A stretch of DNA of 64,000 nucleotides, taken from IMG/VR virus record IMGVR_UViG_3300045988_141143; one strand, written 5' to 3'. This DNA comes from a virus. The notes beneath the pieces were generated by a model. It saw nothing but the letters and a program-made list of their open reading frames with translations. It had not been told where the DNA came from and did no database searches. Numbering within the stretch: position 1 is the stretch's first letter; each line of letters starts with the position of its first letter. Made by a program: the position numbers and the translations under genes. Of the stretch, positions 2,194-48,151 are shown one piece after another.

Positions 2194-2487
2194 ATGAGAA
2201 CGAAAATAGACATTCGTCGCGCCATAAAAGAGCGCGGTTACACCATTACGTCTTTCTGTCAGAAGTTCGACCTAAAGACGCAGAACATCATTCAGAATTA
2301 CATCAAAGGCAACCCTACAATAAAACGTTTGGAAGACCTTTGCGAGAAACTGGATTGCGACATCACTGATTTGTTCTATCCAATAGGCGATTCGAGCGAT
2401 GCACAGTCTACTATCAACACCACCGCTTTATGTCCTCATTGTGGTGCAAAGGTTCGGGTCGGTGTGGTGCTCCTGCCCGAAGAATAA
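2194..2487 (+). CDS. XRE-family HTH DNA-binding protein with C-terminal CPHCG zinc-ribbon-like tail
   Basis: HTH signature ITSFCQKFDLKTQNIIQNYIKG. C-terminal CPHCGAKVRVG, paralogous to the ORF at 71-361. Confidence 0.55.
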   Translation: MRTKIDIRRAIKERGYTITSFCQKFDLKTQNIIQNYIKGNPTIKRLEDLCEKLDCDITDLFYPIGDSSDAQSTINTTALCPHCGAKVRVGVVLLPEE

Positions 2488-13879: not shown

Positions 13880-14128
13880 CTAAGACATTTTCTTCTCTAC
13901 GATAGCTGTCACATCAGACACAAGCTGTAAGTCTTTTGCCTCTTCTGGCGAAATCTTGATATGGAACATGGTTTCGGTCTGAAGAACGAGGTCGAGAAAG
14001 TCAATAGACTCAAGAGCAAGATCATCACGCAGGTTAGCGCTGTCGGTCACTTCTGCTGTCGATGCCCAAGGTGTGCGCAGGCCTTCAACGATATTGAACA
14101 CCCGCTGACGTATATCTTCTTTGTTCAT
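13880..14128 (-). CDS. Acyl carrier protein
   Basis: 82 aa, acidic. DDLALESIDFLDLV resembles the phosphopantetheine-attachment DSL-type motif and helix II. Its start overlaps the ketosynthase stop (ATGA). Confidence 0.65.
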   Translation of the reverse strand: MNKEDIRQRVFNIVEGLRTPWASTAEVTDSANLRDDLALESIDFLDLVLQTETMFHIKISPEEAKDLQLVSDVTAIVEKKMS

Positions 14129-19961: not shown

Positions 19962-19991
19962 ATTGTTGTGTCTTTTATTGTTGTCGGGGTT

Positions 19992-21101
19992 TTAGAACAT
20001 GAGTGGTGTGACGAATATCTTGCCGCCCTCCTGGTTATTCTCGTAGCTGCCGGATTTGTCTGCAGCGGATGATGAGGAAGCGGAGGACGTGGTGGAAGTG
20101 GAGGAGGAAGCGTTGCCTGCGGCGGCTTCCTGAGCCTGCTTCTCGTCCTTGAGGAGGCGATAGACGGAATCGCGGAGCGAGATGGACTCGTTGTGCGCCA
20201 GCAGACGGGTAGCCTTGTCGAAGGCGATGACGGTGGTTCGCTCCACGAGGTAGGCGGTCATCAGTCGGCGCACCTTGCGGAGGAGTTTGTCGCGGTCGTC
20301 AGCGTGCTGAAGACGGTCGATGAGCTCGTCGCCGAATACGTCGGCTATGTATTCGTCCTGCACGTAGCGGAGGTCGGGCAGCAAACGGATGAACTTGTCG
20401 CGGTTGTCGTAAATGTCGAGGTACTGCTGAAGGATGCTGCACGTAGGGATGAGGAGGTCGTGGTGCAGGTAGTAGTACTTACTCTCCTGCCACAACAGCA
20501 CTATTTCCTCGATAGCTGCGAGGCGCTCGGTACTTTCGTCCTGTGGTATGTCGGATTTTCCGTCGTCAGGTACTTCTGTACTTTCGCCCTTTGGTACTTC
20601 GGTACTTGCGCTGCCGTCTTTCGGGGCGGCTGTTTCGGCTGGCGTGTTGATGCTGACTGCCCAGTTTTCGAGAAGTATGAGGAGGTTGTTGAGTGACACC
20701 ATGGCCTCCTTTTTATATCCCGCAACTCCCTTGTCGAGGAGTTTCTCTGTAGCGGGGTCGTAGTCGGTAGAGGAGGCGATGTTGACGCCTGCGCCGTTAA
20801 CCGAAAGGATTTGCTGGTAGGCGTATCGCGCCATGGCATCGTTGACCACCATACGCTGTGCGAGGACGAGGAGGACGCTCCATGGCTTCATGACATAGGT
20901 GCCGTCGGTCATCTGCTGATAGAAGCCGTCGCCGCCCAGGGTGGTATAGTATTCGCAAAGCCGTGTGTAGAGCGGCTTGCCCAATTTGTCCTGCAGGAAG
21001 TCCTTCTCGCTGTTGTCGAGCACGCCCTGCAGGTTGGCTATCTCGTCCACGGCATTGCTGGGCAGGATAAGCCGAAGTTCTTGATTGGTGGAAAGTATCA
21101 T
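19992..21101 (-). CDS. Hypothetical (structural module)
   Basis: 369 aa. C-terminal Ser/Thr/Ala-rich low complexity. Confidence 0.35.
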   Translation of the reverse strand: MILSTNQELRLILPSNAVDEIANLQGVLDNSEKDFLQDKLGKPLYTRLCEYYTTLGGDGFYQQMTDGTYVMKPWSVLLVLAQRMVVNDAMARYAYQQILSVNGAGVNIASSTDYDPATEKLLDKGVAGYKKEAMVSLNNLLILLENWAVSINTPAETAAPKDGSASTEVPKGESTEVPDDGKSDIPQDESTERLAAIEEIVLLWQESKYYYLHHDLLIPTCSILQQYLDIYDNRDKFIRLLPDLRYVQDEYIADVFGDELIDRLQHADDRDKLLRKVRRLMTAYLVERTTVIAFDKATRLLAHNESISLRDSVYRLLKDEKQAQEAAAGNASSSTSTTSSASSSSAADKSGSYENNQEGGKIFVTPLMF

Positions 21102-21173
21102 GATGTGTTGTGCTGTTATGTGCTGAGTGAAAAAAATGTTGTTGTCGGGACGGAAGTCAGGGAGGGGGGAGGG

Positions 21174-22967
21174 TTACTCCTGTTCCTGCTTCTTGACGCC
21201 TGTCTTCGAGTTGTCGAGGGTGGTGAGCACCTCACGGTCTATCTGCCATTCGAGGTGTGTGTCCCATTCATTGACATCGTCGATTACCTCCAAGGCGCGG
21301 AGCATGAGCTGCTGCAATGGGGCAAACTGTATCTGCTTGACGAGGAAACGCTCACGGAGGTCGGTGCCGCCCGATGAGGTTGCGTCGCCAGGGGTGTTGC
21401 CGATGAGCTTGGAGTCGAGACCCATGGCGAAGAAGATGATGCTCGTAATCTCCTGCAGCTCGGTCTTCTCGGCTTGCGCTTGCGAGTTGGCCTTGCTCTC
21501 TATCTCCACAATCTCCCATGCCTTGTGCTCCTTGCCGTCGGCGCCGGTGAACACGGCAGAGATGAGCGCCTGACCTGCATTGTCGGGATTGGAGAGCCAC
21601 GTGTTGATGTCGCTGAACACTTCCTGCTGAAGCTGCGCCATGGTCTTGGTCTTCTTGTCGCCCTGCTGGGTGTAGAGGTTCTTGAGATATTCCTGGTGAA
21701 TGTAGATGACGCGACCGATGATGTTGGAGTTGCGCTTACGGGTGAGTCGGTCGTCGACAATGGTGAAGGCATACTCGTAGATGCTTCCGGCAAAGATGGA
21801 ATGCCAGAGGGCATCGGCATAGTAGGGACCGCCATAGTCGCGTGGCGACATGATGAAGCGGGTGGGGCGGTCCTTGCGGCTTACCCGCTGCTGACGGGCA
21901 CGGCGCACGGCTGCCTGGAGGTCTTTCACTGCCGACACGGTGGGAAGATAGGGCACGGCGGCGATGCTCTTGTCGAGGTCGGCGAACTGGGCGGTGCGGT
22001 CTTGCGTGGGGTCGAGCCACTGGTTCGACACGTAGGCATAATTGATGCGATAGTTGGTGTCCTGTCGCTCCAGTCGGGTGGTGAAGATGCTGCGGTGTTT
22101 CAGTCCTACGACCTTGGGGGTCCACTGGCTGGTGGGTACCGGCTTGCCATCGTCGGAGAGTTGCCGCTGGTTGAGTTGCAGCTCGACGAAGCACTGCGAC
22201 ATGAGCGACATGTCGCCCGCCATGTTGAGGAAGGTCTGCATCAGGTCGTTGTCCTTCATGAATTTCTGCACCTCGCGGTTGGTCTGTTCCCACTTGGCGA
22301 GGGCATCCTTCAGTGCTTTCATCTCATCGCTGTCCTTTGGCTGGCCTTCGGTCTGCTGACTGACGGAATGCAGAGGGTCGTCGGGGTCGCCGCTGACGCC
22401 GTTCTGTTGTTGTGCCTGACGTTCTGCTGCCTCCTGTGCCTTGAGGTCGGCTATCTGTCCGCGGAGCAGTGTGCCAGCCGATGCGTAGGGGATGTATTTC
22501 TCGGTGATGTTGCCGCCTACGTACTGGGTGTAGTGGTATTTGGGCGAGGGTCCGTGGCCTACGAGTATCTTCTTGATGAAGTCGACGCCGGCAGCGGTGA
22601 AGGGCGACATCCGTGAGAGAATCCAGACGAGGTTGGGCAGTCGGTTGCCCACGCCCCATTCCATGTAGCCCAGTCCGGGTGTTCCCACGCCGTTGGGCTT
22701 GGCCTTGTTCTCGCCGCCGCTGGAGGCGAAGATGGTGGAAATCTGTCGTCGTGCTCCCGATGAGGTAGTCGAGCTGCCCTGCGCTGTCATGCCGGCTGTC
22801 TCGAAGAGCATGGAGCGGACGTAATCGTTCCATGAGAAGACTTGTGCGCCGCTGTTGGGATTGATGAAAGCAGAGGGCGACACGGCCACATATCCATCGC
22901 GCTTCAGCTCCTCACTACGATCTTGGAACTGCTGTAAGTTGGTAACTCTGTTCTTGTTGCGTGACAT
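21174..22967 (-). CDS. Large virion protein, portal candidate
   Basis: 597 aa. Size and position (first gene after a strong promoter cassette) are compatible with a portal protein, but no diagnostic motif was recognised. Confidence 0.3.
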   Translation of the reverse strand: MSRNKNRVTNLQQFQDRSEELKRDGYVAVSPSAFINPNSGAQVFSWNDYVRSMLFETAGMTAQGSSTTSSGARRQISTIFASSGGENKAKPNGVGTPGLGYMEWGVGNRLPNLVWILSRMSPFTAAGVDFIKKILVGHGPSPKYHYTQYVGGNITEKYIPYASAGTLLRGQIADLKAQEAAERQAQQQNGVSGDPDDPLHSVSQQTEGQPKDSDEMKALKDALAKWEQTNREVQKFMKDNDLMQTFLNMAGDMSLMSQCFVELQLNQRQLSDDGKPVPTSQWTPKVVGLKHRSIFTTRLERQDTNYRINYAYVSNQWLDPTQDRTAQFADLDKSIAAVPYLPTVSAVKDLQAAVRRARQQRVSRKDRPTRFIMSPRDYGGPYYADALWHSIFAGSIYEYAFTIVDDRLTRKRNSNIIGRVIYIHQEYLKNLYTQQGDKKTKTMAQLQQEVFSDINTWLSNPDNAGQALISAVFTGADGKEHKAWEIVEIESKANSQAQAEKTELQEITSIIFFAMGLDSKLIGNTPGDATSSGGTDLRERFLVKQIQFAPLQQLMLRALEVIDDVNEWDTHLEWQIDREVLTTLDNSKTGVKKQEQE

Positions 22968-23007
22968 ATTCTGTTATCCTGTTTTTAGGGGTTGATGTAT
23001 GTTGTTG

Positions 23008-27847: not shown

Positions 27848-28375
27848 TTACCTTTTTACCTTTTTACTTTTCAAACATGGCCTCATGTATTCCCATATTT
27901 TCGTACAGTCGAGTACATCTGTGTCCTTCCAGTCGGCATCACAGAAGTAGAACAAGTATGCGGCCTTGATAATCTCCTCTTCGCTCATCTCGGCGCAGAG
28001 GTCAGCATACATGGCATTGAAGGCTACATACTTGTCCCAACAATTCACCTTGCTTGGGAAGTCGAAGTCCTTGGTGGCTTGCTCAATCTCCGATTTAGTC
28101 CAGTGAGCGCCCCTGCCCATAGGCACACCCTCATCGTCCAACTTGCTGTAGAGAAGTCGGTCGACATCATGATGGGCAAACATCTCGCTGTAGTGGCGGT
28201 CGTAGAGCACGGCATGCTGGTGACGGATAATCTTCCAGTAAAGTTCAGGATTCTCATTCTCCACCTTCATCAGGTCGCACGACAACTGCTCCAAGGCAGC
28301 ATTGAGTTTTTTGTCTGTCATCTGTCCGTCAACACGGGCCTGGTTGATTAATTGATTGTACTTCATGATTTTCAT
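27848..28375 (-). CDS. Hypothetical protein (lysis cluster)
   Basis: 175 aa. Ends KSKKVKR*, the same tail as the ORF at 37100-38077. Confidence 0.4.
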   Translation of the reverse strand: MKIMKYNQLINQARVDGQMTDKKLNAALEQLSCDLMKVENENPELYWKIIRHQHAVLYDRHYSEMFAHHDVDRLLYSKLDDEGVPMGRGAHWTKSEIEQATKDFDFPSKVNCWDKYVAFNAMYADLCAEMSEEEIIKAAYLFYFCDADWKDTDVLDCTKIWEYMRPCLKSKKVKR

Positions 28376-28522
28376 TTATTTTTTTAAGAATTAATGGTCT
28401 AACAATTGGGGCAAGCGCCACGGAAATGTGGAATGACGGGAAGCGCCGTCGCCTGTCCCGAATCGGGAAGAAAGAAAGAAACTTGCTCTAACTTTCTTTC
28501 TTTCTTATTTTCTCTTAGGTCA

Positions 28523-28852
28523 TCACTCGATGGTTCTGTCAGAGCCTCGGGCATGACCTTCACTTTCTTTTCTTTCATAATCGTATAGTCTTGTGAATAA
28601 TCTCTGCAGCCAAAGCAGCAAAAGCAAAAGCCAGTTGGAACAATAAGCTGCAAGAATGGACAACAGCGCAGCCCCGACGGGAGGACAACGCATACAAACA
28701 AGTACGGCAAGCACGCTCCAGAACGTAAGGCACTGAGGGCATGATGCTACCTTGTTCAACACCTGGGCTACGGCTTCAGCCAATCCCAGATGCTGAATGA
28801 GCGTCGCGGCCGTCAGGACTGCGAGGGTTACTAACAGGTACTCCGTCATCAT
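28523..28852 (-). CDS. Small 3-TM membrane protein, holin candidate
   Basis: 109 aa with three hydrophobic helices and a charged C-terminus. Adjacent to the endolysin cluster. Confidence 0.4.
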   Translation of the reverse strand: MMTEYLLVTLAVLTAATLIQHLGLAEAVAQVLNKVASCPQCLTFWSVLAVLVCMRCPPVGAALLSILAAYCSNWLLLLLLWLQRLFTRLYDYERKESEGHARGSDRTIE

Positions 28853-28861
28853 CGTCAGAGT

Positions 28862-29293
28862 TTAAGCGGTCGCTGTGATGGTGAGGGTGAGAGGCGCATC
28901 GCACACAAAGGTCTTACTGCAGCTGCAACAAGCCACACGGGCTATGCCGTTCTGAATCGCACCTACCGAAGCAGACACGGCTGTAATTGCTGTAGCACTG
29001 AACACGGGAATGGTGAAGTCCTGACTCACCACCTGGGAGCGGGTGCAGCACGTGCCGCAGTTGCAGGGCACGTAGTTGATGACACCCTCGGCGTGCATCA
29101 CCACGAGATACTGCGAAGTGCCTACCTTGACAATATTCTTCACCGAAAACTGGGGCACGAACACGGGTGTCTCGTCCACACAGGCAGGTGTGCAGAGCTG
29201 CTGCGTGATGTTCACATCATAATAAGGGGCAGTGGCTGTCGCACCTACTGCCAGAGTAGCCGTAATGACGGCTGGAATGGTTCTTTTGTTCAT
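28862..29293 (-). CDS. Secreted Cys-rich protein
   Basis: Signal peptide MNKRTIPAVITATLAVGATATA. Motifs CTPAC, CNCGTCC and CCSC. Confidence 0.4.
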   Translation of the reverse strand: MNKRTIPAVITATLAVGATATAPYYDVNITQQLCTPACVDETPVFVPQFSVKNIVKVGTSQYLVVMHAEGVINYVPCNCGTCCTRSQVVSQDFTIPVFSATAITAVSASVGAIQNGIARVACCSCSKTFVCDAPLTLTITATA

Positions 29294-29401
29294 AATCTTT
29301 TTCTTTTTTAATAAAGCGACGAAACTTGCCGCCGCATTCTTTTTAATTGATAAATAGTGCAGGACGTATCTCCTACTGTCAGAGAAAAGGCGAGGCACAC
29401 G

Positions 29402-29824
29402 TTAATGTTTCACCTGATAGCCTGTCGATGACTCCACAGGGAGGTTCTTCTGCAGAAGGTCTGCCAGCTCGTCGAGGTCATCCTCGTCGAAGGTGATCAT
29501 GCCCTCAAGGATAGAGAGCGACCCCTTGAAGCGCAACTGGTCCACCACGTCGTGAGCCATCTGCGGAATGCTCTCGTCGGGAATGTTACCGAAGTACTTG
29601 CATAGCATCGGCGTGACGAGCGCATTCACTATGGGCTGAATCATGGGTTCCATGTCGGCCTGCAGCGAGTAGTTGCCGCTCACCAGTCCCATGCTGCCGA
29701 TGGTGGCTTGCAACGACTGGAGCATGGGCAGACGCATCAGGTTGCTGGCAGCAATCTGCGAAATGGCTGGCCGTGCCCACTCGGACACGACCGCCGCCAA
29801 AATCTGAGAATTGGTGTAATCCAT
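29402..29824 (-). CDS. Hypothetical protein
   Basis: 140 aa, acidic C-terminus. Confidence 0.35.
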   Translation of the reverse strand: MDYTNSQILAAVVSEWARPAISQIAASNLMRLPMLQSLQATIGSMGLVSGNYSLQADMEPMIQPIVNALVTPMLCKYFGNIPDESIPQMAHDVVDQLRFKGSLSILEGMITFDEDDLDELADLLQKNLPVESSTGYQVKH

Positions 29825-29836
29825 ATCTCACGCCGA

Positions 29837-30355
29837 TTACTGGTTACAGCCACAACCACAACCGCAGCCGGTCTGGCATACGTTGGAGGAAGGGATAAAC
29901 ACCTTGGTGACACTCGCAAGAGATGCCACCTGCGACTTCAGCACGTCGATGTTGGCATTGGCAGCAGCATTGTATGCCACCTGCTGTGCGTTGATCGCCT
30001 GCTGTGCGTCCTTGTTGGCATCCACCTTGTCTTCCACACGGCGCAACTTCGTGTCGAGATACTGGGTTACCTCCACCAACTTCTTGTCGGTGTAGTTCTC
30101 GCTCTTCTGGATGGCGAGCTCAGTCTTGAGTGTAGAGTTCTCCTGAATGAGGTTGGTCTCACTCTTGGTGACAAAACGTGCATCGGGGTCGGAAGGGTTG
30201 GCAGTAGCCGGACCGCCGTTTCTCGTCATGCCCAACAGCGAAGCGCCACCGCCCAAAAGGCTGGTAGCCAATCCCGCAATACCAAGGCCAAGGGCTGTGT
30301 TACCTAAGCCTTTGCTGGCAACATCATAGTTGCCGTCATTAGTTTTTACTTGCAT
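29837..30355 (-). CDS. Membrane-anchored coiled-coil protein with a C-terminal CGCGCGC tail (spanin-like candidate)
   Basis: Glycine-zipper TM GLGIAGLATSLLGGGASLLG, a long heptad-rich segment, and an ending CQTGCGCGCGCNQ. Confidence 0.4.
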   Translation of the reverse strand: MQVKTNDGNYDVASKGLGNTALGLGIAGLATSLLGGGASLLGMTRNGGPATANPSDPDARFVTKSETNLIQENSTLKTELAIQKSENYTDKKLVEVTQYLDTKLRRVEDKVDANKDAQQAINAQQVAYNAAANANIDVLKSQVASLASVTKVFIPSSNVCQTGCGCGCGCNQ

Positions 30356-30530
30356 AATGATTGATATTTAAAAAAATTCTTCCAATATCGGAATCATCTG
30401 CAAAAGTAAAGGGAAACAGACAAAAAGAAAAGGGAAGTTTATGAAGTATTCTTACAGGAAAACCACGAAACAGAAATGCTTATGAAAACATAAACAGGCA
30501 CTATATATAAAGGTATAATAAGAATATCTT

Positions 30531-31439
30531 TTATCGCATGGCTTCCTCAAGAGTTCTAATATAAGGTATGGCTTCGTTGCGCACAATGTCGAGAAAAAGT
30601 TGTGCTGACCGCTTCATCGGCACGTCCTTCATCCAGTGGGCATTGCTCATCAGGTCGTGCTCAAGCCCAGCGATGGGACGGACGGTAAGGGTGGGGTGAC
30701 TCTTCAGATAAAGTTTAGGCATGAAAGTAACACAATGGGTTTCTTCCACGATGGCAAGGTCTTCGTTGGGGTCGCTCACAATACATTTTACATTCAGTTT
30801 CATCAAGTCGTATCTCAGATATTGCTGGAAGGTATTGAACACCCTTTCGCCTACATCGGGCATAATCACGTTGTGCCTTAACAAATCCTCGTATGACACC
30901 TTTTCCAGTCGGGCCAAAGGATGGGTGTCCCGCATCATCGCATAGATACGGAAAGGAATACAGGGTTCTGACTTGATACCCTCATTCTTGTAGGCAGAGT
31001 TCAGAGTGAAGGCGAGGTCAATGGAGTGGCTTCTCAACAGGTGGTTCAAGTTCGCTGCCTTGGCAAACTCGGCGTTGATTCTCACATTCGGGTATCGCTC
31101 CATGAAGATAAGTGCAGCCATCCGAATGTAAGGTGCGATAAAAGAGCCTACACCTATCCTCAGCTCGCCCACAAGGCAGTTGTTGAGCGCATTGATTTGC
31201 TCCTTGCAGTCATCCGTCTGCTTCAGTATCTCCTTGGCGCGAGGCAAAAGCGCCTCGCCGCTCTCGGTGAGCATGATGCTGTGCGAGGTGCGGATAAGCA
31301 GCTTGCACCTCAGTTCATCCTCAAGAGCCTTGATGTGCTGACTGATGGCGGACTGAGTGACACAACAGCGCGTGGCTGCAATGCTGAAAGATAAAGTTTC
31401 AGCGACATATACAAATGAGCGCAAATGACGAAGTTCCAT
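30531..31439 (-). CDS. LysR-family transcriptional regulator
   Basis: N-terminal HTH MELRHLRSFVYVAETLSFSIAATRCCVTQSAISQHIKALEDEL followed by a LysR substrate-binding-like domain. Confidence 0.75.
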   Translation of the reverse strand: MELRHLRSFVYVAETLSFSIAATRCCVTQSAISQHIKALEDELRCKLLIRTSHSIMLTESGEALLPRAKEILKQTDDCKEQINALNNCLVGELRIGVGSFIAPYIRMAALIFMERYPNVRINAEFAKAANLNHLLRSHSIDLAFTLNSAYKNEGIKSEPCIPFRIYAMMRDTHPLARLEKVSYEDLLRHNVIMPDVGERVFNTFQQYLRYDLMKLNVKCIVSDPNEDLAIVEETHCVTFMPKLYLKSHPTLTVRPIAGLEHDLMSNAHWMKDVPMKRSAQLFLDIVRNEAIPYIRTLEEAMR

Positions 31440-40194: not shown

Positions 40195-41280
40195 TTAGCC
40201 ATAGATTTCCTGCATATCCTCCCTCGAAAGTGTTACCTTGGCTCTTTTGCAAAACATGAAAAAAGTATTTGCTCTTACTCTTTCGTATTTTCCGAATGAC
40301 TTCCAAGGAGCCACAAAGTCTGATTCACGGTGTCCGTGGTTGGCATCAAAGGGACGGAAACGAGAAACTCGCTTCCACATATCATAGCCTTCATTCGGAT
40401 CGATACTGTATAAAGACATTCCGCATTTAACCCAGTCATCATAGTTTTCCATAATGTCAACAGCATTCTGCTCTACCTTACGTACAAGGACACGCGCTTT
40501 GCGCAAGATGATGTCGGGTGTATCATTTTCCCAATCACCAGTATAACCCGACCTCTGACCTGACGACGTATTTTCGTAATGCGTAGCAACTTTAGTTACA
40601 GGAATTAGCGATGGCAACACAGCCATATCTTCCAGTCCCTTATACGGCACCACATTTTCATTGATATATATATGTTCGGGATCGTCCCAGGAGGCGAAGC
40701 GCACACGACCGATGTTGCTGCAAGCCTTGTCGAGCATGATGCCGATAGCGGCATATTCTTTGAGCAGAGCTTTGAACTGGTCTTTGTGTCTTTCGGGATA
40801 GGCCAGACGAACCAGACCGAAATAACCAGTACCAGAGCAAGACCGCATCATTAATCCTATCTCAGGACGAAAACGGGCAAGCTTAAATATACTTTCAAAA
40901 TCAGTTATCTGAAGATTGTCCTGCAGATCAATGTCGATGGCGAGCCAGCCCGTGTGCTGTTTCAGGTGGCTCTCTCGTCGGCTCACCATGACACGCTGCC
41001 CTGGATGCGTCAGACTGTCATCTTCATAGAGAGCGAACAAGCCGCTAAGAGTGGCACCAGGTAACATCTTCTTGGTATTGATGTACTCAGGCATTTTCTT
41101 TGCCTTGCTGCCAAATTCCTGACGCATAGCACGAAGACGCTGCACATACGGCTTCCATCTATCCGTAAGACAGAACTCGCGGATGGTCATCTGCTGAATG
41201 CACTCACCCGTCTCGCGGTCTACGAAACGGCCATAAGCATCTTGGGCAGACTCATAAATAGAGCAAACTTCGTCAAACAT
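40195..41280 (-). CDS. Primase-polymerase (AEP-like) domain protein
   Basis: GWLAIDIDLQD (DxD), CSGTGYFGLVRL and NIGRVRFAS resemble archaeo-eukaryotic primase motifs I-III. Adjacent to an iteron-rich region. Confidence 0.45.
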   Translation of the reverse strand: MFDEVCSIYESAQDAYGRFVDRETGECIQQMTIREFCLTDRWKPYVQRLRAMRQEFGSKAKKMPEYINTKKMLPGATLSGLFALYEDDSLTHPGQRVMVSRRESHLKQHTGWLAIDIDLQDNLQITDFESIFKLARFRPEIGLMMRSCSGTGYFGLVRLAYPERHKDQFKALLKEYAAIGIMLDKACSNIGRVRFASWDDPEHIYINENVVPYKGLEDMAVLPSLIPVTKVATHYENTSSGQRSGYTGDWENDTPDIILRKARVLVRKVEQNAVDIMENYDDWVKCGMSLYSIDPNEGYDMWKRVSRFRPFDANHGHRESDFVAPWKSFGKYERVRANTFFMFCKRAKVTLSREDMQEIYG

Positions 41281-42199
41281 ATCTTAGTTATTATACTTAA
41301 TACTTTCACTGCAAAATTAAGAAATAAAACCTAAATAACAAAATATCTGGGGTATTTTCTTGTGTATTTAAGATATATTAAAAGAAATTTAATCGAAATA
41401 TCCCAGTTGTTTCACGTAATGATAGGTATTTTTGAGTGATGAGAAGGAGCATAAAATAAAATGAGACCAAAAAGAAGACTCTGGTCTCATTTCTGTATCA
41501 AAAAGTCCCATTTTTCAAAAATGAACCAAAAAGCAAAAGTCCACTCATCCTATTTTTCTCCTTTTTAGTCCCATGATTGTCTCACGATTATCACCCTGTT
41601 GCCCACTTATTTCTTGCTGTTACTTGCTTACTAATTAGCTTTTTATATTATTTTGGTCTCAAAATGATTATTTTTTTTATAAACTAATATGCGCATAAGA
41701 AATAAAATATTTATCTAAAAGATATAAAATACAGCAAAATTGGCTCAAATCCATCTTATACTTTGCTCCATTTCAATCTTGTAAGTAACTTATTGTCTGA
41801 TGTTTACGGCAAAGCCGTTAATGCTACTAACTTCTAAATTGAGGTTAGGGGCTTTTGATTTTAGGAGAATAAAAAAATTACCCAAAATTCTGATATAGTA
41901 TGCTTAGGATTCATGAAAAATGCGACCAAAACCCTGAAATGAGACCAAAAATGCGAATAAAGTCCCAATAAATGAGACTGTTACACCACTACTCTACCCT
42001 GTCACATTCATATTTGCGAAATGCGACCAGATTATTCGGATTCCATATTGACTATCGTTTTATAGCCGTTCACACCTCACAGCGAAAGAGAAAAACACTG
42101 CGTTTCACAACGAAAAAAGACCACCACGTTTCACAACGGAGCGGTCTCATCAGAAAATACTAACTAATAAATAAGATAAAGAAAATAAAATTCGTAAAC
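41281..42199. promoter_or_regulatory. AT-rich non-coding region with ATG(A/C)GACCAAAA iterons, putative replication origin
   Basis: Copies at about 41461, 41480 (inverted), 41521, 41653 (inverted), 41919, 41939, 42021 and 42141 (inverted). Inverted repeat GAGACC...GGTCTC at 41463-41488. AAAGTCCCA repeats. Confidence 0.4.
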
Positions 42200-45100
42200 T
42201 TAGCCCTTGCCTTTCATAAACTGGTTGGCTTTTGTCATGCTGTCATAAAGATTACCACGGCCATACATGTCTATCTTTGCGTAGATAGGTTCATTCAGTC
42301 GGTCGAGGAGGGTCTTGACGGCTTGCATGAGAGCGGCTTGGCTGGCTGTGTTGTTAGCGATTACATTGTTGGCCGCTGGTGCGCCCAACAGAAGATTACC
42401 ATTTTCTGCTGTAAAGCCCGCTGCTGCGTCCCCCATTGCGCTCGCAAGCTCGCCGACATTACCATTGTCAAATGCGCGTCTTGCTGCACGTCTGCCTGAA
42501 TAGTTGCTGTCGTAGTTGACGAGAGCCTTGAGGAGTGCCGGATTGTTCATCATCATGGCGTGTGTCGTCTCACGACCGATTACTATCTCGGGTCCATTCT
42601 CTGCTACAAGAGAAGGCTGGCCATTGATGGTAGTAGCCCTTGGAGTAGTTATCATTTGCACGCCAGTTTTTTGCCTGCCGTCATCCTCTGTTGCCCAATA
42701 AATATCACCATTGTCGGCTACAAATGGCTTCAGGTCTTGCACGTTACCGCTGTCATACGTAAGCATACCTGAAACGAGCTTCGTGTTTTTAGATACAGAA
42801 GAAGATTTCTTACTGCTGCTGCTGAAAGCCGAATTAAGTGCCCACTGAAGCAAGCCCATCAGAGTAGCCATCACTCCTGCTGCAGCAATAGGACCAGCAA
42901 TAGGACCTAAGAACTCAAAACACTTCGCCATTGCTCCCGCGATAGAGAATGTCACCTCTTGGTCGGTGCGGGCCGCGTCCGAGTTTGCCACATCCTGATT
43001 GTTCTGTTCTTTAGCTGCAAGATTGGTGGTCATAGCCGTCTGGGTCATATCAAGAATGGCATTCTGCGCTATCTCCGTACTCTTACTTTGCTCTTTATTG
43101 CCGGCATCGGTGATGTCAGTTATATTCTTGACACCTTGATGGGTTTCTTTCTCTCTATCCTTAGCTCCCTTTTTAACCTCTTTGCTGAGTTCTTTTTGAT
43201 GCTTCCTTTCTTTCTTGAGCTGCTTGGCTTTTTCCTTGTCGTCTCCAGTTTTCTTTGAAGAACCGCCAAGAGTGAAATTGGTATTCATCAAGTCACCCAC
43301 AAGGCTGCCTCCGATACCGGCTACGGCATCGGACAGAGTAGTACCACCTGTAATAGCACCAGCAACGGCTGTTCCCGCTTGAGAGGCTGTATCAATACCG
43401 TAAGTCTCCTTGTTATAATCATGGATAGTACCGTTTGGATGACGTTTCTTCCATGCAGCAGGAGGCTCAGTATTTGCAAGATTGTTGCCGTTGGCATCAA
43501 TATACTGACCTCCTACGACACGTACCCACATCGGGTTTTCAGCCGTGCCCAGGTTACGCCAATCCATATCAATGGTAGTAGCATTAGCATTAGCATTGGC
43601 TCTCGCTGCATCAATGCCAGGCTGTGCGTTTTTCTTGCCTTGTTTCGCTCCGGCATCATTGATGGCTTTCCACATTTGGGTGTTCACGTCATTTAGCGCC
43701 ATATTAGCCCACGACTCAATCATAGACTTCAGGGCATTCTTGATGCTCTCCTGTGCGCTTGATACGTCAGACTCCATCATGGCGAAAGCCTTGCCTACCT
43801 CTGCACCGAAGGTTTCAATAGGCTGTACGAGCTGCTGCATCTGCGAAAGGCGGTTCTTCATCGCCGTCGCCATTTGGTTGGCATAAGCAAGTTCGGCCTC
43901 CTGGCGAGCCTTATCCGCCTCGTCTACCAACTGCTTGTTACGAGAGTTCTTCAGACAGAAGGCATAGTAATCTTCTGCCAGCTGCATCTTCAGCTTCAGT
44001 AGTTCTACCTCTGGGTCAGCGGTAAGGTCGGCAAGACCGAGGTTGGAAAGAAGGTTGGTCCGCTTGCCGAAGAGAGAACTTTCCTGCTGCATCTTGCGCA
44101 GCTTTGCCTGCTGATCGAGATTGCGTTTGTTGTTTTTCCAAAGAAAATCAGAAATCTTCTTGGCTTCATCGTATTCTTTTTTCTGTGCAGCTGTATATTC
44201 ATCAACATATTGGATAAGCTTGTGATAGAATAGCTTTACATTCTGCTCAGTCTCGCCCATCAACGCAAGAAAGACAGAAGGCATCTGCATATAGTCTTTT
44301 CCAAATAAGAACTGAAGCAGCTTCTGCTTCTCCCCGTTTGTCTCAAAAAGTGCCGCCATTTGTGTGCGAGCCTTTTCCAAAACTTTTATAACATCAGCCC
44401 TATCTTTATTTAGCGTTTCAAGCGAAACGTCTGCAAAACGAGAATTTATTAATCCCAAGAAAGAATTTTGTTGAACTATGCCTGTGTAATCATGTTCAAG
44501 TAGCTCCTTCCGACGTTGCTCTATGCGTTTTTGAATCACATTGCTTGAATCGTTCTCTTTTGATGAAGCATTCAGCCACATTCGGTCAAGATAAGCACGG
44601 TCGCGTTCATCTGATTTATATCCGACAACTTGCCCTTTCTTAATTTTAGGCATTTGCTTTAATAAATCAGAACGAAGTTGTGCTACATTAGTATTCAATA
44701 TGGCATCCTCAAGCATACGAGACTGAGATTGTCCAAACTCATCGTCTTTTTCCTTGCGATATTTGTCTATTGATTTTTTAAATTTATCCCAAGTTTTATT
44801 TCCAAAGACAATAGACTGCTGCGCAGCTGCAAGGGCAGCATCCATTTGTATTTGAATGTCATTAACTGCCTGTTCTTGTAATTCTTTCTCTACACCCTTC
44901 TTTGAAAGATCCTCAACAGTAGCTGTCATTTGGCGCTTATAGAAATTCTTTATCTTCGTAATAAACTCAGATATGTTGTTGCGAGCATCATCTTCAGGAG
45001 TAGTTGTGTTACCTCCACCACCGTTGCCGCCATAAACTTTTTGACCTACAGCCATTCCATCTCCTACATCAAGTTTAGCCCCAAACTTTTTCCGTAAGGC

Positions 45101-48100
45101 TTCTTCTTGTGCGTTTATTTCATCCAGTCTTGACTGAGCCTTATCTCGCTCGCGTTTCGCAGCCGCACGTTGTCCTGCCTGTCCGATTGCACCCTGTGCC
45201 TGCCCTGGCATCATAGCACCACCAGAGGTCTGAATATATCTTCCATTAGGAGCGTTCACGTGTGTATTTGCATACGCATCTTCTTTTTTCTGCAAATCAA
45301 GAATAGCATCCACTTTCTCACGACCCAATTCTGCCAACTTAGAACGAGCGCCCTCAAGTTCGTAGTAATCTTGTAGACGTTGAAAGTTTTTCTCCCATGC
45401 CTTAGTGTTTTCCTTAACAACACCCGTCTCTGTGTTAATTTTAGCGTTGAGGTTAGGAATAGCGCCATTCAATTTATTCATAGCTTCGAGGCGAAGATTC
45501 ATTGACGCAGAAGTATCGTGCATAACATTATGCAGACGCTTCAACGATTCTTGTTCCTCCATAGCCTTACGCTTACCTTCTTCTTGTACTTCGTTAAGCA
45601 CGCGCTGTCCTGCGGATAAACCGTTCAAAGAGGAAGAATATTCGGCAAGTTTTACGACCAATATACCCAATAATCCAATTAATCCTCCCATAATACCCGC
45701 CTGCTTGGCAAACGACAAGCCATTAAATGCAGCTTTAGTTTTGGCAACAACAGCCCCCAGAGACAACATACCTCCCTCTAATCCCTGAACATAAGTAAGC
45801 AGTTTTGCAAAGCCACCCGCTAATCCTGCCATACTAATCATGGTGATCAACGTAGGAAGTATGCTCAGTAGCATCTTTATAGAGGCAAAGAGCAGCGCTA
45901 ACGCTACACGAACCTCTGTCATAAAACTCATACTGGTTGTAAGTTCCTTTACAACTTCAAACCAAGCTTTTGCTATATCACGAATAGGTCCCGAAGCCGC
46001 ACTTGAAGAAACAAACTGTTTTTCAAGAAGGTTGTTAGCCCTCTCCATATACGCGGCTGCAGTTTCCTGCTGCATATTATACTCAACCGTAACAGCAGAA
46101 CCTTCATTAAAAGCTTTATTAGACTCCTTTACCGCTTTAGTAAGCATACCATTCTTGGCAGCCATTGTTACCATAGTTTTTACCAAACGAGCGCCATCTG
46201 AGCCTAAGTCCTTAAATAAGCCATCAAGAGCAAAAAGGTTTTTAGTTTCGCCCATTCTGCGGAAAATGGTTAAGATTGCATCCATACCTCTTCCACTCTC
46301 GATCATCTTCTTCAAAGAACCAGAAGCTATACCGAGTGATTTTTCAATAGGGCTTGTACCTTTACGAAGCTCTACAACCAACTTTCCAAAAGCTGTTGCT
46401 GCAACTTCTGGCTCAAGGGCCATTGAGTCAACAGCCGCACCAAGAGCCAAAATATCTGGGGTTGTTAAAGCCGCCTGTTCGCCCAATGCAAGCATACGAT
46501 TAGAGAAATCCACAATCTTTCCGCTTGTCGCTGTAGATGTAGATGCCAGTCGGAAAATCGCAGAGCCTGTTTTCAGCATAGCCTGCTCCACTCCATATTT
46601 ATCCGCAAGACCCATCACCTCAGTAATCTTAGCAAGAGCCGTCAACGCTTCATCGCCCAAATCCTCTTTCAATGCGACGTTCACCTGGTCTGCGGCACGG
46701 ACGAAGCCAGCTAAATTTTGAGTTGTAACACCAAGTTTAGCTCCCGCATAGGCCAAGTTGTTCAGTTCTTCTATGCTTGTACGGGTATCGATTTTAGCAA
46801 GTTCCTTTGATAAATTTGCTACTTCGTCAGTTGTAGATAAAGCGACCTTACGAATATTAGTAAGCTGTTCGCTATACTTCATATTAAGACGAAACAAATC
46901 CATAAAGTACGTTTTAAGCTGATTGAACATCGCAAACAATCCGACATAAGCCGTGAGGTTCTTCAGTGCTGTCTGCCATGCGCTGCCATGCTTGTTGGCC
47001 GCACCCGTCGCCTCGTCGATGTTCTTCTTCAGCTCCTTCATCGACTTCTGCTTGTCGGCAAACTCCTTACTCTTGGTATTGATTTGGTTCAGTTCCTCTT
47101 CGAGTTGCTTGTAGGCACGGCGCAGTTCGTCGAGGGAGGCCTTACCCTGCTTGCTACGGGCGAGAATGTCGTTAAGGGCACTCTGCGACATACGGGTCCC
47201 CTTGAGGGTCTGTTCGAGCATGGAGTATTGGCGACGGAGGTCGGCCACATACTTGCTGCCAGCAGGGAGTTGCTGAATCTTCTGCTGTATCACTTCCATC
47301 GTGCGCTTGATGTCTTCGCCCGAAGCCTTGTTAGGTTCAGCCAATACCTGCTTCATCTGCTTCCAGCTCATTGATGCTTTCTGAGTCTTACCCGACACAG
47401 CCTCCAGCCGCTTCTCTATCTCCTGGAGCTCGCTGTTGTATTTTGCAATATCAGCCGAATTGCCTGTAGGTGTGTTGTCGCGAGCCTCAGTAAGCGTAGA
47501 CTTGGCTCGGCGCAAATCAGATGCTGAAGCGTTTTGACTGGTTACAGTCTGATGTGCCTCTGCCACGCCCATTTTGCCCTTGCGTCTGTCCTCCTCGGCT
47601 TCAAGTTGCTTCAATGTGGCGAGATTCTGCTGATAGGACGCATCCGATTTTTGCAGCGAACCTACGAGGTCACGCTGTTGTTTGATGGCCTTGTCGAGCC
47701 ATTGATCGGATTGGTTCTTTACATTATTCAAGCCATCGGCTATCTTGACATACTGACCTTCAATAAGGCGCATTTGATCGCCCACTTGCTTCATCTCGCT
47801 TCGTATCTGCTCTGCCTTCTTCAGGTCGGCATCCGAGCCGGTGAGCTTAGCAAGAGCCGACTTGCCCGAACCCATAGCACGACGCAGGTCACGAAGCTTA
47901 GTGTTGGTGAGGTCTTGCACCACCTCGCTCAATCGCTTCGTGTCCTCGATATTGTCACGCTGCACTTGCGACAACGCCTTCAATGTGCTCTCTGCCCTCT
48001 TACACTCAGCAGTGTTAGCCTGTCCTGCGGCAGTCATCTTCTGGATGTCGGCAGTATATTTCTGCACAAGATTGTCAATCTCTTCCAACACCTTCTTGGC

Positions 48101-48151
48101 TGTAGAGGCATTGGCCGTGATTACTACTTTTGCTAATTTTTGTGTTGCCAT
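42200..48151 (-). CDS. Tail tape measure protein
   Basis: 1983 aa, extensive coiled coil with a central hydrophobic/glycine segment. Antisense ORFs are rejected. Confidence 0.7.
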   Translation of the reverse strand: MATQKLAKVVITANASTAKKVLEEIDNLVQKYTADIQKMTAAGQANTAECKRAESTLKALSQVQRDNIEDTKRLSEVVQDLTNTKLRDLRRAMGSGKSALAKLTGSDADLKKAEQIRSEMKQVGDQMRLIEGQYVKIADGLNNVKNQSDQWLDKAIKQQRDLVGSLQKSDASYQQNLATLKQLEAEEDRRKGKMGVAEAHQTVTSQNASASDLRRAKSTLTEARDNTPTGNSADIAKYNSELQEIEKRLEAVSGKTQKASMSWKQMKQVLAEPNKASGEDIKRTMEVIQQKIQQLPAGSKYVADLRRQYSMLEQTLKGTRMSQSALNDILARSKQGKASLDELRRAYKQLEEELNQINTKSKEFADKQKSMKELKKNIDEATGAANKHGSAWQTALKNLTAYVGLFAMFNQLKTYFMDLFRLNMKYSEQLTNIRKVALSTTDEVANLSKELAKIDTRTSIEELNNLAYAGAKLGVTTQNLAGFVRAADQVNVALKEDLGDEALTALAKITEVMGLADKYGVEQAMLKTGSAIFRLASTSTATSGKIVDFSNRMLALGEQAALTTPDILALGAAVDSMALEPEVAATAFGKLVVELRKGTSPIEKSLGIASGSLKKMIESGRGMDAILTIFRRMGETKNLFALDGLFKDLGSDGARLVKTMVTMAAKNGMLTKAVKESNKAFNEGSAVTVEYNMQQETAAAYMERANNLLEKQFVSSSAASGPIRDIAKAWFEVVKELTTSMSFMTEVRVALALLFASIKMLLSILPTLITMISMAGLAGGFAKLLTYVQGLEGGMLSLGAVVAKTKAAFNGLSFAKQAGIMGGLIGLLGILVVKLAEYSSSLNGLSAGQRVLNEVQEEGKRKAMEEQESLKRLHNVMHDTSASMNLRLEAMNKLNGAIPNLNAKINTETGVVKENTKAWEKNFQRLQDYYELEGARSKLAELGREKVDAILDLQKKEDAYANTHVNAPNGRYIQTSGGAMMPGQAQGAIGQAGQRAAAKRERDKAQSRLDEINAQEEALRKKFGAKLDVGDGMAVGQKVYGGNGGGGNTTTPEDDARNNISEFITKIKNFYKRQMTATVEDLSKKGVEKELQEQAVNDIQIQMDAALAAAQQSIVFGNKTWDKFKKSIDKYRKEKDDEFGQSQSRMLEDAILNTNVAQLRSDLLKQMPKIKKGQVVGYKSDERDRAYLDRMWLNASSKENDSSNVIQKRIEQRRKELLEHDYTGIVQQNSFLGLINSRFADVSLETLNKDRADVIKVLEKARTQMAALFETNGEKQKLLQFLFGKDYMQMPSVFLALMGETEQNVKLFYHKLIQYVDEYTAAQKKEYDEAKKISDFLWKNNKRNLDQQAKLRKMQQESSLFGKRTNLLSNLGLADLTADPEVELLKLKMQLAEDYYAFCLKNSRNKQLVDEADKARQEAELAYANQMATAMKNRLSQMQQLVQPIETFGAEVGKAFAMMESDVSSAQESIKNALKSMIESWANMALNDVNTQMWKAINDAGAKQGKKNAQPGIDAARANANANATTIDMDWRNLGTAENPMWVRVVGGQYIDANGNNLANTEPPAAWKKRHPNGTIHDYNKETYGIDTASQAGTAVAGAITGGTTLSDAVAGIGGSLVGDLMNTNFTLGGSSKKTGDDKEKAKQLKKERKHQKELSKEVKKGAKDREKETHQGVKNITDITDAGNKEQSKSTEIAQNAILDMTQTAMTTNLAAKEQNNQDVANSDAARTDQEVTFSIAGAMAKCFEFLGPIAGPIAAAGVMATLMGLLQWALNSAFSSSSKKSSSVSKNTKLVSGMLTYDSGNVQDLKPFVADNGDIYWATEDDGRQKTGVQMITTPRATTINGQPSLVAENGPEIVIGRETTHAMMMNNPALLKALVNYDSNYSGRRAARRAFDNGNVGELASAMGDAAAGFTAENGNLLLGAPAANNVIANNTASQAALMQAVKTLLDRLNEPIYAKIDMYGRGNLYDSMTKANQFMKGKG

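What the first reader, a model, noticed from the sequence alone, without database searches (positions are those of the whole stretch)
41281..42199. 900-bp AT-rich non-coding region with at least 8 ATG(A/C)GACCAAAA iterons between the primase gene and the tape measure gene, a putative replication origin
Direct and inverted copies of ATGAGACC/ATGCGACC(A)AAAA occur with a 26-bp inverted repeat (GAGACCAAAAAGAAGACTCTGGTCTC) and several AAAGTCCCA repeats. Iteron clusters next to a primase or initiator gene are the classic organisation of phage and plasmid origins. The region has no ORF longer than 60 aa in the gene orientation.
Basis: seen in the sequence. Interest (0 to 1): 0.55.

Follow-up and report, generated by a model that had tools for sequence, protein, structure and literature searches.

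The report
Conserved repeat-rich non-coding module, probable phage origin
The 919-base gap between the tape-measure and primase genes is a real non-coding module, present once in every member of an abundant, uncultured family of ~100-kb human-gut phages; it most likely serves as their replication origin, but this is unproven and the protein that reads its repeats is unknown.

Summary
The core ATG[ACG]GAC occurs 19 times in the 64-kb window, and 9 of those lie in this 919-nt gap (P about 2e-12). The "AAAGTCCCA" repeats are the same motif read on the other strand. More than 150 related gut-phage contigs share one collinear layout. It runs: TMP terminator, 3-5 repeats, a ~120-nt conserved core, the most AT-rich 100 nt of the window, 5-8 repeats mostly in the opposite orientation ending in a dyad, then a canonical Bacteroidetes promoter for the primase. 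Repeat positions are conserved, but the repeat sequence changes by lineage (TGGAC, TGCAC or TG[N]GAC), so these are protein-binding sites. The core holds a stem-loop with a near-invariant heptaloop, GTAGCAT. Its stem exists in at least 6 compensatory versions. The best reading is a replication-origin module (confidence 0.5), loosely like the IncQ oriV: initiator repeats, an unwinding region and a priming hairpin. No direct evidence of replication exists. The repeats do not co-vary with the primase, and in nine genomes 3.7 kb separates the module from the primase gene. GC skew is uninformative. The main rival is a transcribed small RNA with operator arrays. This is a new member of a known kind, of moderate interest.

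The parts
42096..42139 (-). Two tandem intrinsic-terminator-like hairpins with T-runs, just after the TMP stop codon. They are the upstream boundary of the module.
   Evidence: One search finds stems at 42139-42121 and 42112-42096, each followed by a T-run. A terminator hairpin with compensatory changes sits at this position in all lineages. The window carries a 25-nt duplication that relatives L003 and L005 lack.
41921..42027 (.). TMP-proximal repeat cluster of five copies: 42022-42027(+), 41973-41978(+), 41962-41967(-), 41940-41945(+), 41921-41926(+). Four of the five have their motif on the + strand.
   Evidence: Across 63 unique relatives the copies occupy equivalent bins 200, 150 and 100 nt upstream of the core loop, with lineage-specific sequence.
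41775..41893 (-). Conserved core. It is the only part of the gap detectable by sequence in all lineages, and it is single copy.
   Evidence: BLAST finds only query positions 300-420 conserved family-wide. See alignments A2 and A3. nhmmer finds one hit in the window, at 41893-41775 on the minus strand (E = 2e-26), and never more than one hit in any locus.
41817..41831 (-). Stem-loop A. On the gene strand it reads GTTA-GTAGCAT-TAAC: a 4-bp stem with a near-invariant heptaloop.
   Evidence: All cells pair (100%), and 3 of 4 pairs show compensatory changes. Stem versions seen: GTTA/TAAC, GTCA/TGAC, GTAG/CTAC, ATTA/TAAT, GTGT/ACAC and GTGA/TCAC. The loop GTAGCAT is present in 153 of 154 distinct hits.
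41806..41818 (-). Stem-loop B, directly 3' of A on the gene strand. It reads ACGGC-TTT-GCCGT in the window and ACGCC-TAT-GGCGT in most relatives.
   Evidence: RNAalifold predicts it. All 3 inner pairs show compensatory changes (GCC/GGC, GGC/GCC, ACT/AGT, AAC/GTT, GAC/GTC and others).
41832..41880 (-). G-poor pyrimidine/A tract on the gene strand, just 5' of the stem-loops. It has 2 G in 49 nt here and none in about 48 nt in the main lineage.
   Evidence: and the consensus. The blocks TCAAAA, CCC and AC are invariant.
41632..41731 (.). The most AT-rich 100 nt of the whole 64-kb window (GC 0.15). This is the candidate DNA-unwinding element. A T-run here is conserved in all lineages.
   Evidence: The conserved T-run and the GCGC block are visible.
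41656..41661 (-). A single repeat copy (TTGAGACCAAAA) at the edge of the AT-rich stretch.
   Evidence: Copies sit at the same position in the TGCAC-type lineage and in the main-lineage locus L040 (TTTTTGGACTTTT); in the main-lineage consensus this site is degenerate (TTTTTAAACTTTT).
41458..41584 (.). Primase-proximal repeat cluster: 41579-84(-), 41568-73(-), 41539-43(-), 41522-26(+, degenerate), 41505-10(-), 41484-89(-), 41462-67(+). Most copies are on the opposite strand to the other cluster. It ends in the dyad at 41458-41493.
   Evidence: The dyad is conserved in position with lineage-specific half-sites: TGGAC..GTCCA, TGCAC..GTGCA, TGAAC..GTTCA. The orientation bias holds in all three repeat types.
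41312..41342 (-). Primase promoter. A Bacteroidetes-type -7 box TAATTTTG lies at 41312-41319, and a -33 TTTG at 41339-41342, 19 nt upstream. The -7 box ends 32 nt before the ATG.
   Evidence: TAnnTTTG is present at this alignment position in 63 of 63 unique relatives. In rearranged genomes this ~200-nt piece travels with the primase, not with the element.

Best explanation
The gap holds a self-contained non-coding module of about 750 nt, plus the primase promoter. The module is most likely the phage's origin of replication.

Proposed mechanism:
1. An unidentified, lineage-specific DNA-binding protein occupies about a dozen short repeats. The core is TG[A/C/G]GAC here and TGGAC or TGCAC in other lineages, with A/T-tract flanks. 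The repeats form two oppositely oriented clusters. (Inferred from concerted repeat evolution.)
2. The resulting nucleoprotein complex opens the 100-nt AT-rich stretch between the clusters. (Inferred.)
3. Unwinding exposes the conserved core, whose two small stem-loops can then form. One of them carries a near-invariant heptaloop. They would act as a structure-specific start signal, for example for the phage's archaeo-eukaryotic-type (AEP) primase, whose catalytic half is as conserved across the family as the core is. (Speculative, by analogy with RSF1010 ssiA/ssiB and RepB'.)
4. The phage's own sliding clamp and other factors then build forks. (Inferred.)

What is shown: the repeats, their conserved positions and lineage-specific sequence, the base-pairing constraint in the core, the AT minimum, single-copy status and modularity.

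What is not shown: any replication activity, any binding protein, and whether the stem-loops act in DNA or in RNA.
For: - Repeat clustering is far beyond chance: 9 of 19 window copies lie in 1.4% of the sequence (P = 2e-12). The same holds for each lineage's own motif in 21-kb loci.
- The architecture is collinear in about 75 IMG/VR relatives with primases 57-100% identical, and the core recurs in more than 100 gut-metagenome contigs.
- Repeat positions and orientations are conserved while the core sequence switches between TGGAC, TGCAC and TG[N]GAC. This points to sites co-evolving with a specific protein.
- The most AT-rich 100 nt of the 64-kb window lies between the clusters.
- The core is single copy. 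Its stems covary (6 of 7 pairs, 99.2% paired, 0 of 500 shuffles), while the heptaloop is fixed in 153 of 154 sequences. A fixed loop with varying arms is what a recognised hairpin shows; a duplex palindrome shows the opposite.
- The whole-region RNA fold is weak (z = -1.9, -1.2 and +0.2).
- The neighbouring genes are replication and nucleotide-metabolism genes: AEP primase, guanylate kinase, ThyX and MazG. The phage also encodes a beta clamp.
- The module stays intact and next to the TMP gene when a 3.7-kb block is inserted before the primase promoter, so it is a discrete unit and not a primase leader.
- A precedent exists. RSF1010 oriV combines RepC-bound repeats with ssi hairpins read by the AEP-like primase RepB' (PMC8567376). 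PriCT domains are DNA-binding partners of AEP domains (PMC5862659).
Against: - There is no functional or coverage evidence of initiation here.
- Cumulative GC skew has no extremum at 41-42 kb. Its turning points are near 12-13, 23-24 and 48-49 kb and follow gene content.
- No initiator was identified. Repeat type does not co-vary with the primase, with the LysR helix-turn-helix or with any ORF within 10 kb on either side.
- The gap has no DnaA boxes.
- The repeats are shorter and less regular than classical iterons.
- The core is followed by lineage-variable hairpins and a conserved T-run and preceded by a near-consensus -7-like box. It could therefore be a small transcription unit.
- About 20 kb of the ~100-kb genome was not examined for other candidate origins.
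Confidence: 0.5

Rival explanations
1. The module is a regulatory hub built around a small transcribed RNA. The core (G-poor 5' tract, two stem-loops, variable hairpin, U-run) would be a ~170-200-nt cis- or trans-acting RNA. Candidates include an sRNA, or a nut/put-like antitermination signal whose fixed loop is read by a phage protein. The flanking repeats would then be operator sites for a lineage-specific transcription factor that controls this RNA and the hand-over between the late (tail) genes and the replication and nucleotide genes.
For: - The stems covary and the loop is fixed, which is typical of protein-recognised RNA hairpins such as lambda boxB.
- Six G.U-compatible cells favour the gene strand and two favour the other strand.
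- A near-consensus -7-like box (TAAATTTCG / GAATTTTGG) with invariant T and G sits about 15 nt upstream of the G-poor tract.
- Every lineage has some hairpin followed by a conserved T-run 60-125 nt downstream of the loop.
- The G-poor, C-containing tract resembles an unstructured seed or a Rho-loading region.
Against: - No canonical TAnnTTTG promoter lies upstream of the core in any lineage, whereas the primase promoter is canonical in 63 of 63.
- Two terminators insulate the core from TMP transcription.
- RNAalifold finds no consensus terminator stem.
- Overall fold z-scores are weak.
- There is no Rfam match, even at E = 10.
- About a dozen sites spread over 700 bp in two opposed clusters is more than simple operators need.
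- The motif is absent from other intergenic regions of the window, so there is no regulon.
Confidence: 0.25
2. The module is a site where a higher-order nucleoprotein complex forms for a purpose other than replication. One option is a centromere-like partition site for a plasmid-like carrier state, as in R1 parC with two repeat clusters around a core. The other is a terminase recognition (pac/cos-type) site.
For: - Two clusters of short repeats with A-tract flanks around a central core resemble parC and parS and also cosB and pac layouts.
- The phage has Cro/CI-type and LysR-type regulators, and no integrase appeared among the ORFs scanned, which is compatible with a non-integrating carrier state.
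- Five assemblies break inside the gap.
Against: - No ParA, ParB, ParM or TubZ-like gene appeared among the ORFs scanned.
- TerL lies 11.5 kb away on the other strand, and the gap is not next to a small terminase subunit gene.
- The contig break points inside the gap all differ (98, 230, 331, 353 and 527 nt from the primase ATG), and large contigs are permuted differently. These look like assembly breaks in an AT-rich variable region, not a fixed terminus.
Confidence: 0.1
3. The module is an attachment or recombination site. It could be an attP with arm-type sites around a core shared with the host, or a segment inverted by a site-specific recombinase.
For: Repeats in opposite orientation flank a strongly conserved core, as in lambda attP arm sites or invertons.
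Against: - The core pattern occurs in only 3 contigs among 185,579 species' genomes. All three are MAG contigs (one 51.7 kb, two of 6-10 kb), which I take to be phage contigs although I did not check their gene content. So there is no conserved attB and no common prophage.
- No integrase is adjacent.
- Among about 75 relatives the core was never seen in the inverted orientation relative to the flanking genes.
Confidence: 0.02

Closest known systems
IncQ plasmid RSF1010 oriV (RepC-bound iterons, an AT-rich region, and the ssiA/ssiB hairpins primed by the AEP-like primase RepB'; PMC8567376)
   Same: Initiator-type repeats lie next to an AT-rich stretch and to conserved hairpins. The element encodes a primase with an AEP catalytic domain and a helical bundle (PriCT-type) domain. 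The hairpins show a structural constraint together with fixed single-stranded bases.
   Different: RSF1010 has 3.5 direct 20-bp iterons on one side and two 40-nt ssi sites as an inverted pair on opposite strands. Here there are about 12 shorter repeats in two opposed clusters and a single tandem pair of 4-5-bp hairpins. No RepC-like or RepA-like genes were identified. The host element is a ~100-kb tailed phage. There is no sequence similarity. Priming at the hairpin is only my inference.
Phage P4 ori/crr, bound by the alpha primase-helicase, and classical iteron origins (lambda ori/O, P1 oriR, plasmid Rep-iteron origins). This comparison rests on my own knowledge.
   Same: A specific short sequence is repeated, in direct and inverted orientation in P4, in a non-coding or AT-rich region near replication genes. 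The repeat sequence is specific to the replicon lineage.
   Different: In those systems the binding protein is known and is usually encoded next to or around the repeats, and iterons are 17-22 bp with helical phasing. Here the adjacent primase does not co-vary with the repeats, the element can be separated from it by 3.7 kb, and the spacing is irregular.
Non-coding origins of lactococcal phages (c2, sk1/936 group), where the origin lies in an intergenic repeat-rich region and in c2 is transcribed. This comparison rests on my own knowledge.
   Same: A large intergenic, AT-rich, repeat-bearing region at a module boundary. A short non-coding transcript may arise inside the origin.
   Different: The host phylum, sequences and repeat organisation are unrelated. 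The function of those origins was shown by plasmid replication assays; here nothing has been tested.
Lambda nut (boxA/boxB) and HK022 put antitermination RNAs. This comparison rests on my own knowledge.
   Same: A small hairpin with a conserved loop and a freely covarying stem, preceded by a conserved linear block, located between operons and terminators.
   Different: No N-like protein or upstream promoter was identified. The element is single copy rather than one per early operon. It is embedded in arrays of DNA repeats, which nut sites are not.

Membership tests
Iteron-type replication origin | Multiple copies of one specific sequence, concentrated in a non-coding region | tested here: met
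   9 of 19 core copies lie in 919 nt (P = 2e-12). There are 13 copies with the relaxed core. The same holds for each lineage's motif.
Iteron-type replication origin | Iterons of about 17-22 bp, mostly direct repeats with regular (helical) spacing | tested here: not met
   The core is 5-7 bp (12-14 bp with A/T flanks). Copies occur in both orientations, in two opposed clusters. Spacings are 11-88 nt and irregular.
Iteron-type replication origin | An adjacent AT-rich DNA-unwinding region | tested here: met
   41632-41731 has GC 0.15, the lowest 100-nt value in 64 kb, and lies between the clusters. This is a sequence-level test only.
Iteron-type replication origin | A cognate initiator protein that binds the repeats, usually encoded nearby and co-evolving with them | tested here: inconclusive
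   No co-variation with the primase, the LysR helix-turn-helix, or any ORF within 10 kb on either side. The rest of the genome could not be compared across lineages.
Iteron-type replication origin | Replication initiates at the site, or the site supports autonomous replication | not testable with these tools
   This needs marker-frequency or plasmid-replication experiments. GC skew gives no signal.
IncQ-type oriV with ssi priming signals | Two ssi hairpins, arranged as an inverted pair on complementary strands | tested here: not met
   There is one core per genome on one strand (nhmmer), holding two different tandem mini-hairpins.
IncQ-type oriV with ssi priming signals | The element encodes an AEP-like primase with a helical-bundle domain, plus separate initiator (RepC) and helicase (RepA) proteins | tested here: inconclusive
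   BT4734-like_N + PriCT_2 primase is present. No RepC-like or RepA-like hits appeared among the ORFs scanned.
Known RNA families (Rfam 15) | A covariance-model match at or near the gathering score | tested here: not met
   There are no hits at the gathering score in the window. The best hit at E <= 10 in the gap covers the TMP terminator region (31 bits against a gathering score of 43), and nothing covers the core. No tRNA or tmRNA was found.
Phage attP | A core sequence shared with a bacterial attB, and an adjacent integrase | tested here: not met
   The core pattern occurs in 3 MAG contigs out of 185,579 species' genomes. The neighbours are the TMP and primase genes.
Bacteroidetes housekeeping-sigma promoter (applies to the 41312-41342 part only) | A -7 box TAnnTTTG with a -33 TTTG about 19-21 nt upstream | tested here: met
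   TAATTTTG lies at 41312-41319 and TTTG at 41339-41342 with a 19-nt spacer. The -7 box is present in 63 of 63 relatives. The consensus is from my own knowledge of Bacteroides promoters. Transcription itself was not tested.

The most novel reading that the evidence does not exclude
The invariant-loop stem-loop core is the actual initiation signal of a ~100-kb tailed phage. On this reading it is a structure-specific single-strand start site, for priming or nicking, read by the family's conserved AEP primase. It would be coupled to a separate, fast-evolving repeat-binding initiator. That would be an IncQ-plasmid-style 'iterons + ssi hairpin' origin, or an origin with a dedicated primer or activator RNA, operating in an abundant and uncultured family of gut phages that probably infect Prevotella.
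Probability: 0.25. Interest if true: 0.65.

Novelty: new member of a known kind. Interest (0 to 1): 0.45.

Why it matters
- **Abundance.** The phage family is abundant in human gut metagenomes. More than 100 contigs of 85-114 kb carry the core, with assembly coverage up to about 940x.
- **No cultured relative.** TerL is at most 31% identical to any GenBank phage.
- **Host link.** The only host clue is two Prevotella MAG contigs.
- **Tools.** If the module is the origin, it gives a compact (~750 nt), sequence-defined handle for replication studies. It could also serve as a part for vectors in Prevotella/Segatella, which I understand to lack good genetic tools.
- **Marker.** The core is a precise single-copy marker for the family.
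- **Natural experiment.** The lineage-specific repeats allow a search for the cognate DNA-binding protein by covariation.
- **If it is ordinary.** Even then, it corrects the assumption that the adjacent primase is the repeat-binding initiator.

Tried and rejected
- **Antisense micro-ORF.** An ORF (MLLT...) starts in the invariant loop. Its length varies from 5 to 108 aa and a 1-nt indel shifts its frame, so it is not coding. No ORF of consistent size exists in the gap on either strand.
- **Known RNA families.** No Rfam, tRNA or tmRNA match.
- **Large structured RNA.** Fold z-scores are weak.
- **attP or prophage.** The core is essentially absent from bacterial genomes.
- **Inverton.** The core was never found inverted among about 75 relatives.
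- **Genome terminus or pac site.** Contig ends inside the gap fall at different positions, and large contigs are permuted differently.
- **DnaA boxes.** None in the gap.
- **CRISPR-repeat mimic.** No Cas12a-handle-like sequence in the gap.
- **Search for the repeat-binding protein.**
  - The primase splits into two C-terminal types that do not follow repeat type.
  - The LysR helix-turn-helix is nearly identical in all types.
  - No ORF within 10 kb on either side fits the pattern.
  - A 364-aa early protein is restricted to the window's own lineage.
- **Rival origin near the clamp gene.** The 578-nt gap there has no repeat array.
- **Collection-wide scan for AAATGAGACCAAAA.** It was swamped by chance hits. 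It did show that a further ~100-106-kb clade shares this repeat type and layout.
- **Homologous primases elsewhere.** Those in cultured Bacteroidetes phages and in a Parabacteroides integrative element have no comparable adjacent gap.
- **PDB sequence searches.** Searches with the primase and two neighbouring ORFs found nothing useful.
- **Consensus terminator after the core.** RNAalifold found none.

Full report
**What is at the coordinates**

Genes here run on the minus strand. A 1983-aa tape-measure gene (42200-48151) ends at the right edge of the finding. A 361-aa primase gene (40195-41280; Pfam BT4734-like_N + PriCT_2) starts at the left edge. Guanylate kinase, ThyX and MazG genes follow the primase.

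The 919-nt gap (GC 0.31) is the largest non-coding stretch in the window, and public gene calls leave it empty. The window is a phage. It carries TMP, tail proteins, a head protease, TerL, holin, endolysin and methylases. No GenBank phage is closely related: TerL is at most 31% identical and the primase at most 30%.

**Checking the observation**

- The 12-mer ATGMGACCAAAA has 3 exact copies in the gap, 1 copy with one mismatch and 3 with two mismatches. The six other window hits are at chance level.
- The 7-mer core ATG[ACG]GAC occurs 19 times in 64 kb, and 9 of these are in the gap. The binomial P is 2e-12, and composition-matched simulations give a mean of 0.16.
- With a relaxed core I count 13 copies.
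- The inverted repeat at 41458-41493 is real.
- No conserved ORF exists in the gap.

**Relatives**

The primase retrieved 79 IMG/VR loci with 57-100% identity. A LysR gene and a 14-mer scan revealed a further clade of ~100-106-kb contigs. Many are 85-114 kb and some have several-hundred-fold coverage. Among 185,579 bacterial species' genomes the core pattern occurs in only three MAG contigs, two of them binned as Prevotella. The element is therefore not an attB or a common prophage, and Prevotella is the likely host.

**Conserved architecture**

Almost all relatives have a 750-1000-nt gap of GC 0.31-0.36 at this position. Alignment of ten divergent lineages shows one collinear plan:

1. One or more terminator hairpins after the TMP gene.
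2. A cluster of three to five repeats.
3. A conserved core of about 120 nt.
4. About 60 variable nt.
5. A T-rich, AT-rich stretch. In the window this is 41632-41731 with GC 0.15, the lowest 100-nt value in 64 kb.
6. One repeat. The main-lineage consensus is degenerate at this site.
7. A cluster of four to seven repeats, mostly in the opposite orientation and ending in a dyad.
8. About 100-150 variable nt.
9. A canonical Bacteroidetes -7 box TAnnTTTG, present in 63 of 63 unique sequences, about 32-38 nt before the primase ATG.

Only the core can be detected by BLAST across the whole family. It is single copy in the window and was never found more than once in any locus.

**The repeats behave as protein-binding sites**

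The over-represented word differs by lineage:

| Lineages | Repeat |
|---|---|
| Most | AAAGTCCA (core TGGAC) |
| L030 group | AAGTGCAA (core TGCAC) |
| Window lineage, L025/L027 and the ~105-kb clade | ATG[ACG]GAC |

In all three types the copies fall in the same bins relative to the core loop and keep the same orientation pattern. Upstream they sit at -200, -150 and -100. Downstream they sit at +150 to +350, with a reversed copy at +350. None lies between -50 and +150. Every copy in a lineage carries the same core change while the positions stay fixed. This implies recognition by a specific protein that co-evolves with the sites.

I could not find that protein:

- The primase has a very conserved catalytic half and two C-terminal types, and neither follows repeat type.
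- The conserved LysR regulator has the same helix-turn-helix in all types.
- No ORF within 10 kb on either side fits the pattern.
- The early genes are lineage-specific cassettes that I could not compare across clades.

**The core**

On the gene strand the core begins with a block that resembles a -7 box but is not canonical. A G-poor tract follows, with invariant TCAAAA, CCC and AC. Two adjacent mini stem-loops come next.

- Stem-loop A is GTTA-GTAGCAT-TAAC.
- Stem-loop B is (AC)GCC-TAT-GGC(GT) in most lineages and GGC-TTT-GCC in the window.

On a 55-sequence alignment 99.2% of cells pair and 6 of 7 pairs show compensatory double changes. None of 500 shuffles reaches the observed values, and sliding the partner columns destroys the signal.

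Wider sampling gives at least six Watson-Crick versions of stem A and at least six of stem B. The heptaloop GTAGCAT is present in 153 of 154 distinct hits. Varying arms with a fixed loop indicate a hairpin recognised in single-stranded form, as RNA or as unwound DNA. A duplex palindrome would show the reverse pattern.

G.U evidence for strand choice is weak: six cells favour the gene strand and two the other. The region as a whole is not a strongly structured RNA (z = -1.9, -1.2 and +0.2). It matches no Rfam family.

**Modularity**

In nine genomes a 3.7-kb block is inverted and inserted between the dyad and the primase promoter. The block consists of the LysR gene and five small genes, homologous to window 27848-31439. 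The ~780-nt element stays intact beside the TMP gene, and the ~200-nt promoter piece stays with the primase. The element is therefore a discrete unit and not a long primase leader. It does not need to adjoin the primase gene.

**Interpretation**

An origin of replication explains the most features. These are about a dozen lineage-specific binding sites in two opposed clusters, the extreme AT stretch between them, a single-copy conserved element with a recognised hairpin, the replication and nucleotide-metabolism neighbourhood, and a phage-encoded clamp elsewhere in the genome.

The closest mechanistic precedent is RSF1010 oriV. There RepC binds iterons, and the AEP-like primase RepB' starts synthesis at the ssiA and ssiB hairpins (PMC8567376). 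PriCT domains are DNA-binding partners of AEP domains (PMC5862659). This is a resemblance, not membership. Repeat length and arrangement and the ssi geometry differ, and no RepC or RepA homologues were found.

Against the origin reading:

- There is no functional or coverage evidence.
- GC skew is uninformative.
- No initiator was identified.
- There are no DnaA boxes.

The main rival is that the core is a small transcription unit or a nut-like RNA element, with the repeats as operators. Its support is the -7-like box, the lineage-variable hairpins and the conserved T-run downstream. It lacks a canonical promoter and a consensus terminator. It also does not explain why so many sites are spread over 700 bp. 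The two readings are not exclusive, because several phage and plasmid origins contain a transcript.

Partition or packaging sites are less likely. An attP or inverton is essentially excluded.

**Verdict**

The origin interpretation is plausible but unproven (confidence 0.5), and its primase-as-initiator component is not supported. This is a new member of a known kind of element. One feature is unusual and testable: the invariant-loop stem-loop core.

Noticed in passing
window 1811-2398 and 71-711: There is a second large AT-rich gap (588 nt; GC about 0.2 at 1955-2166). It lies beside two Cro/CI-type HTH_3 genes in the window and a third called in relatives, at a position where two independent assemblies end. 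This may be an early regulatory switch. The ATGMGACC motif is absent here.
   Followed up: partly
window 27848-31439: A LysR-type regulator (30531-31439) is a conserved core gene of this phage family, with 119 relatives at 75-99% identity. Together with five small genes it forms a 3.7-kb block that is inverted and relocated next to the non-coding module in nine genomes.
   Followed up: partly
window 13880-15339 and 19000-23000: A beta-ketoacyl synthase gene (14125-15339), with a small upstream ORF (13880-14128), sits among structural genes. GC rises to 0.57 at 19-23 kb, against about 0.47 elsewhere.
   Followed up: no
whole window: DnaA-box-like 9-mers (TTATCCACA with at most one mismatch) occur 28 times, against 14 +/- 3.7 expected (0 of 100 shuffles). 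All lie in coding regions and none lies in the gap.
   Followed up: no
L427:3874-5070 (same phage lineage, outside the window): The phage encodes a DNA polymerase III beta sliding-clamp homologue next to a 971-aa protein with no family match. No DNA polymerase or helicase was recognised in any region examined.
   Followed up: partly
window 42096-42139: A 25-nt tandem duplication, specific to the window and its closest relative, creates two terminator hairpins after the TMP gene. Relatives L003 and L005 have one.
   Followed up: yes
window 40195-41280 compared with L454 and L455: The primase here is a short form of 361 aa (AEP + PriCT-2). Homologues in cultured Bacteroidetes phages are ~740-aa fusions that also carry a VirE-type ATPase. 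The partner helicase of this phage is unidentified.
   Followed up: partly
most relatives' gaps (for example L040:3130-4000): A second recurring word, CTACTA/TAGTAG, is over-represented (z = 4-6) in most lineages. It occurs around the core and the AT-rich stretch, and it overlaps the start of the invariant loop (TTAGTAGCAT).
   Followed up: no
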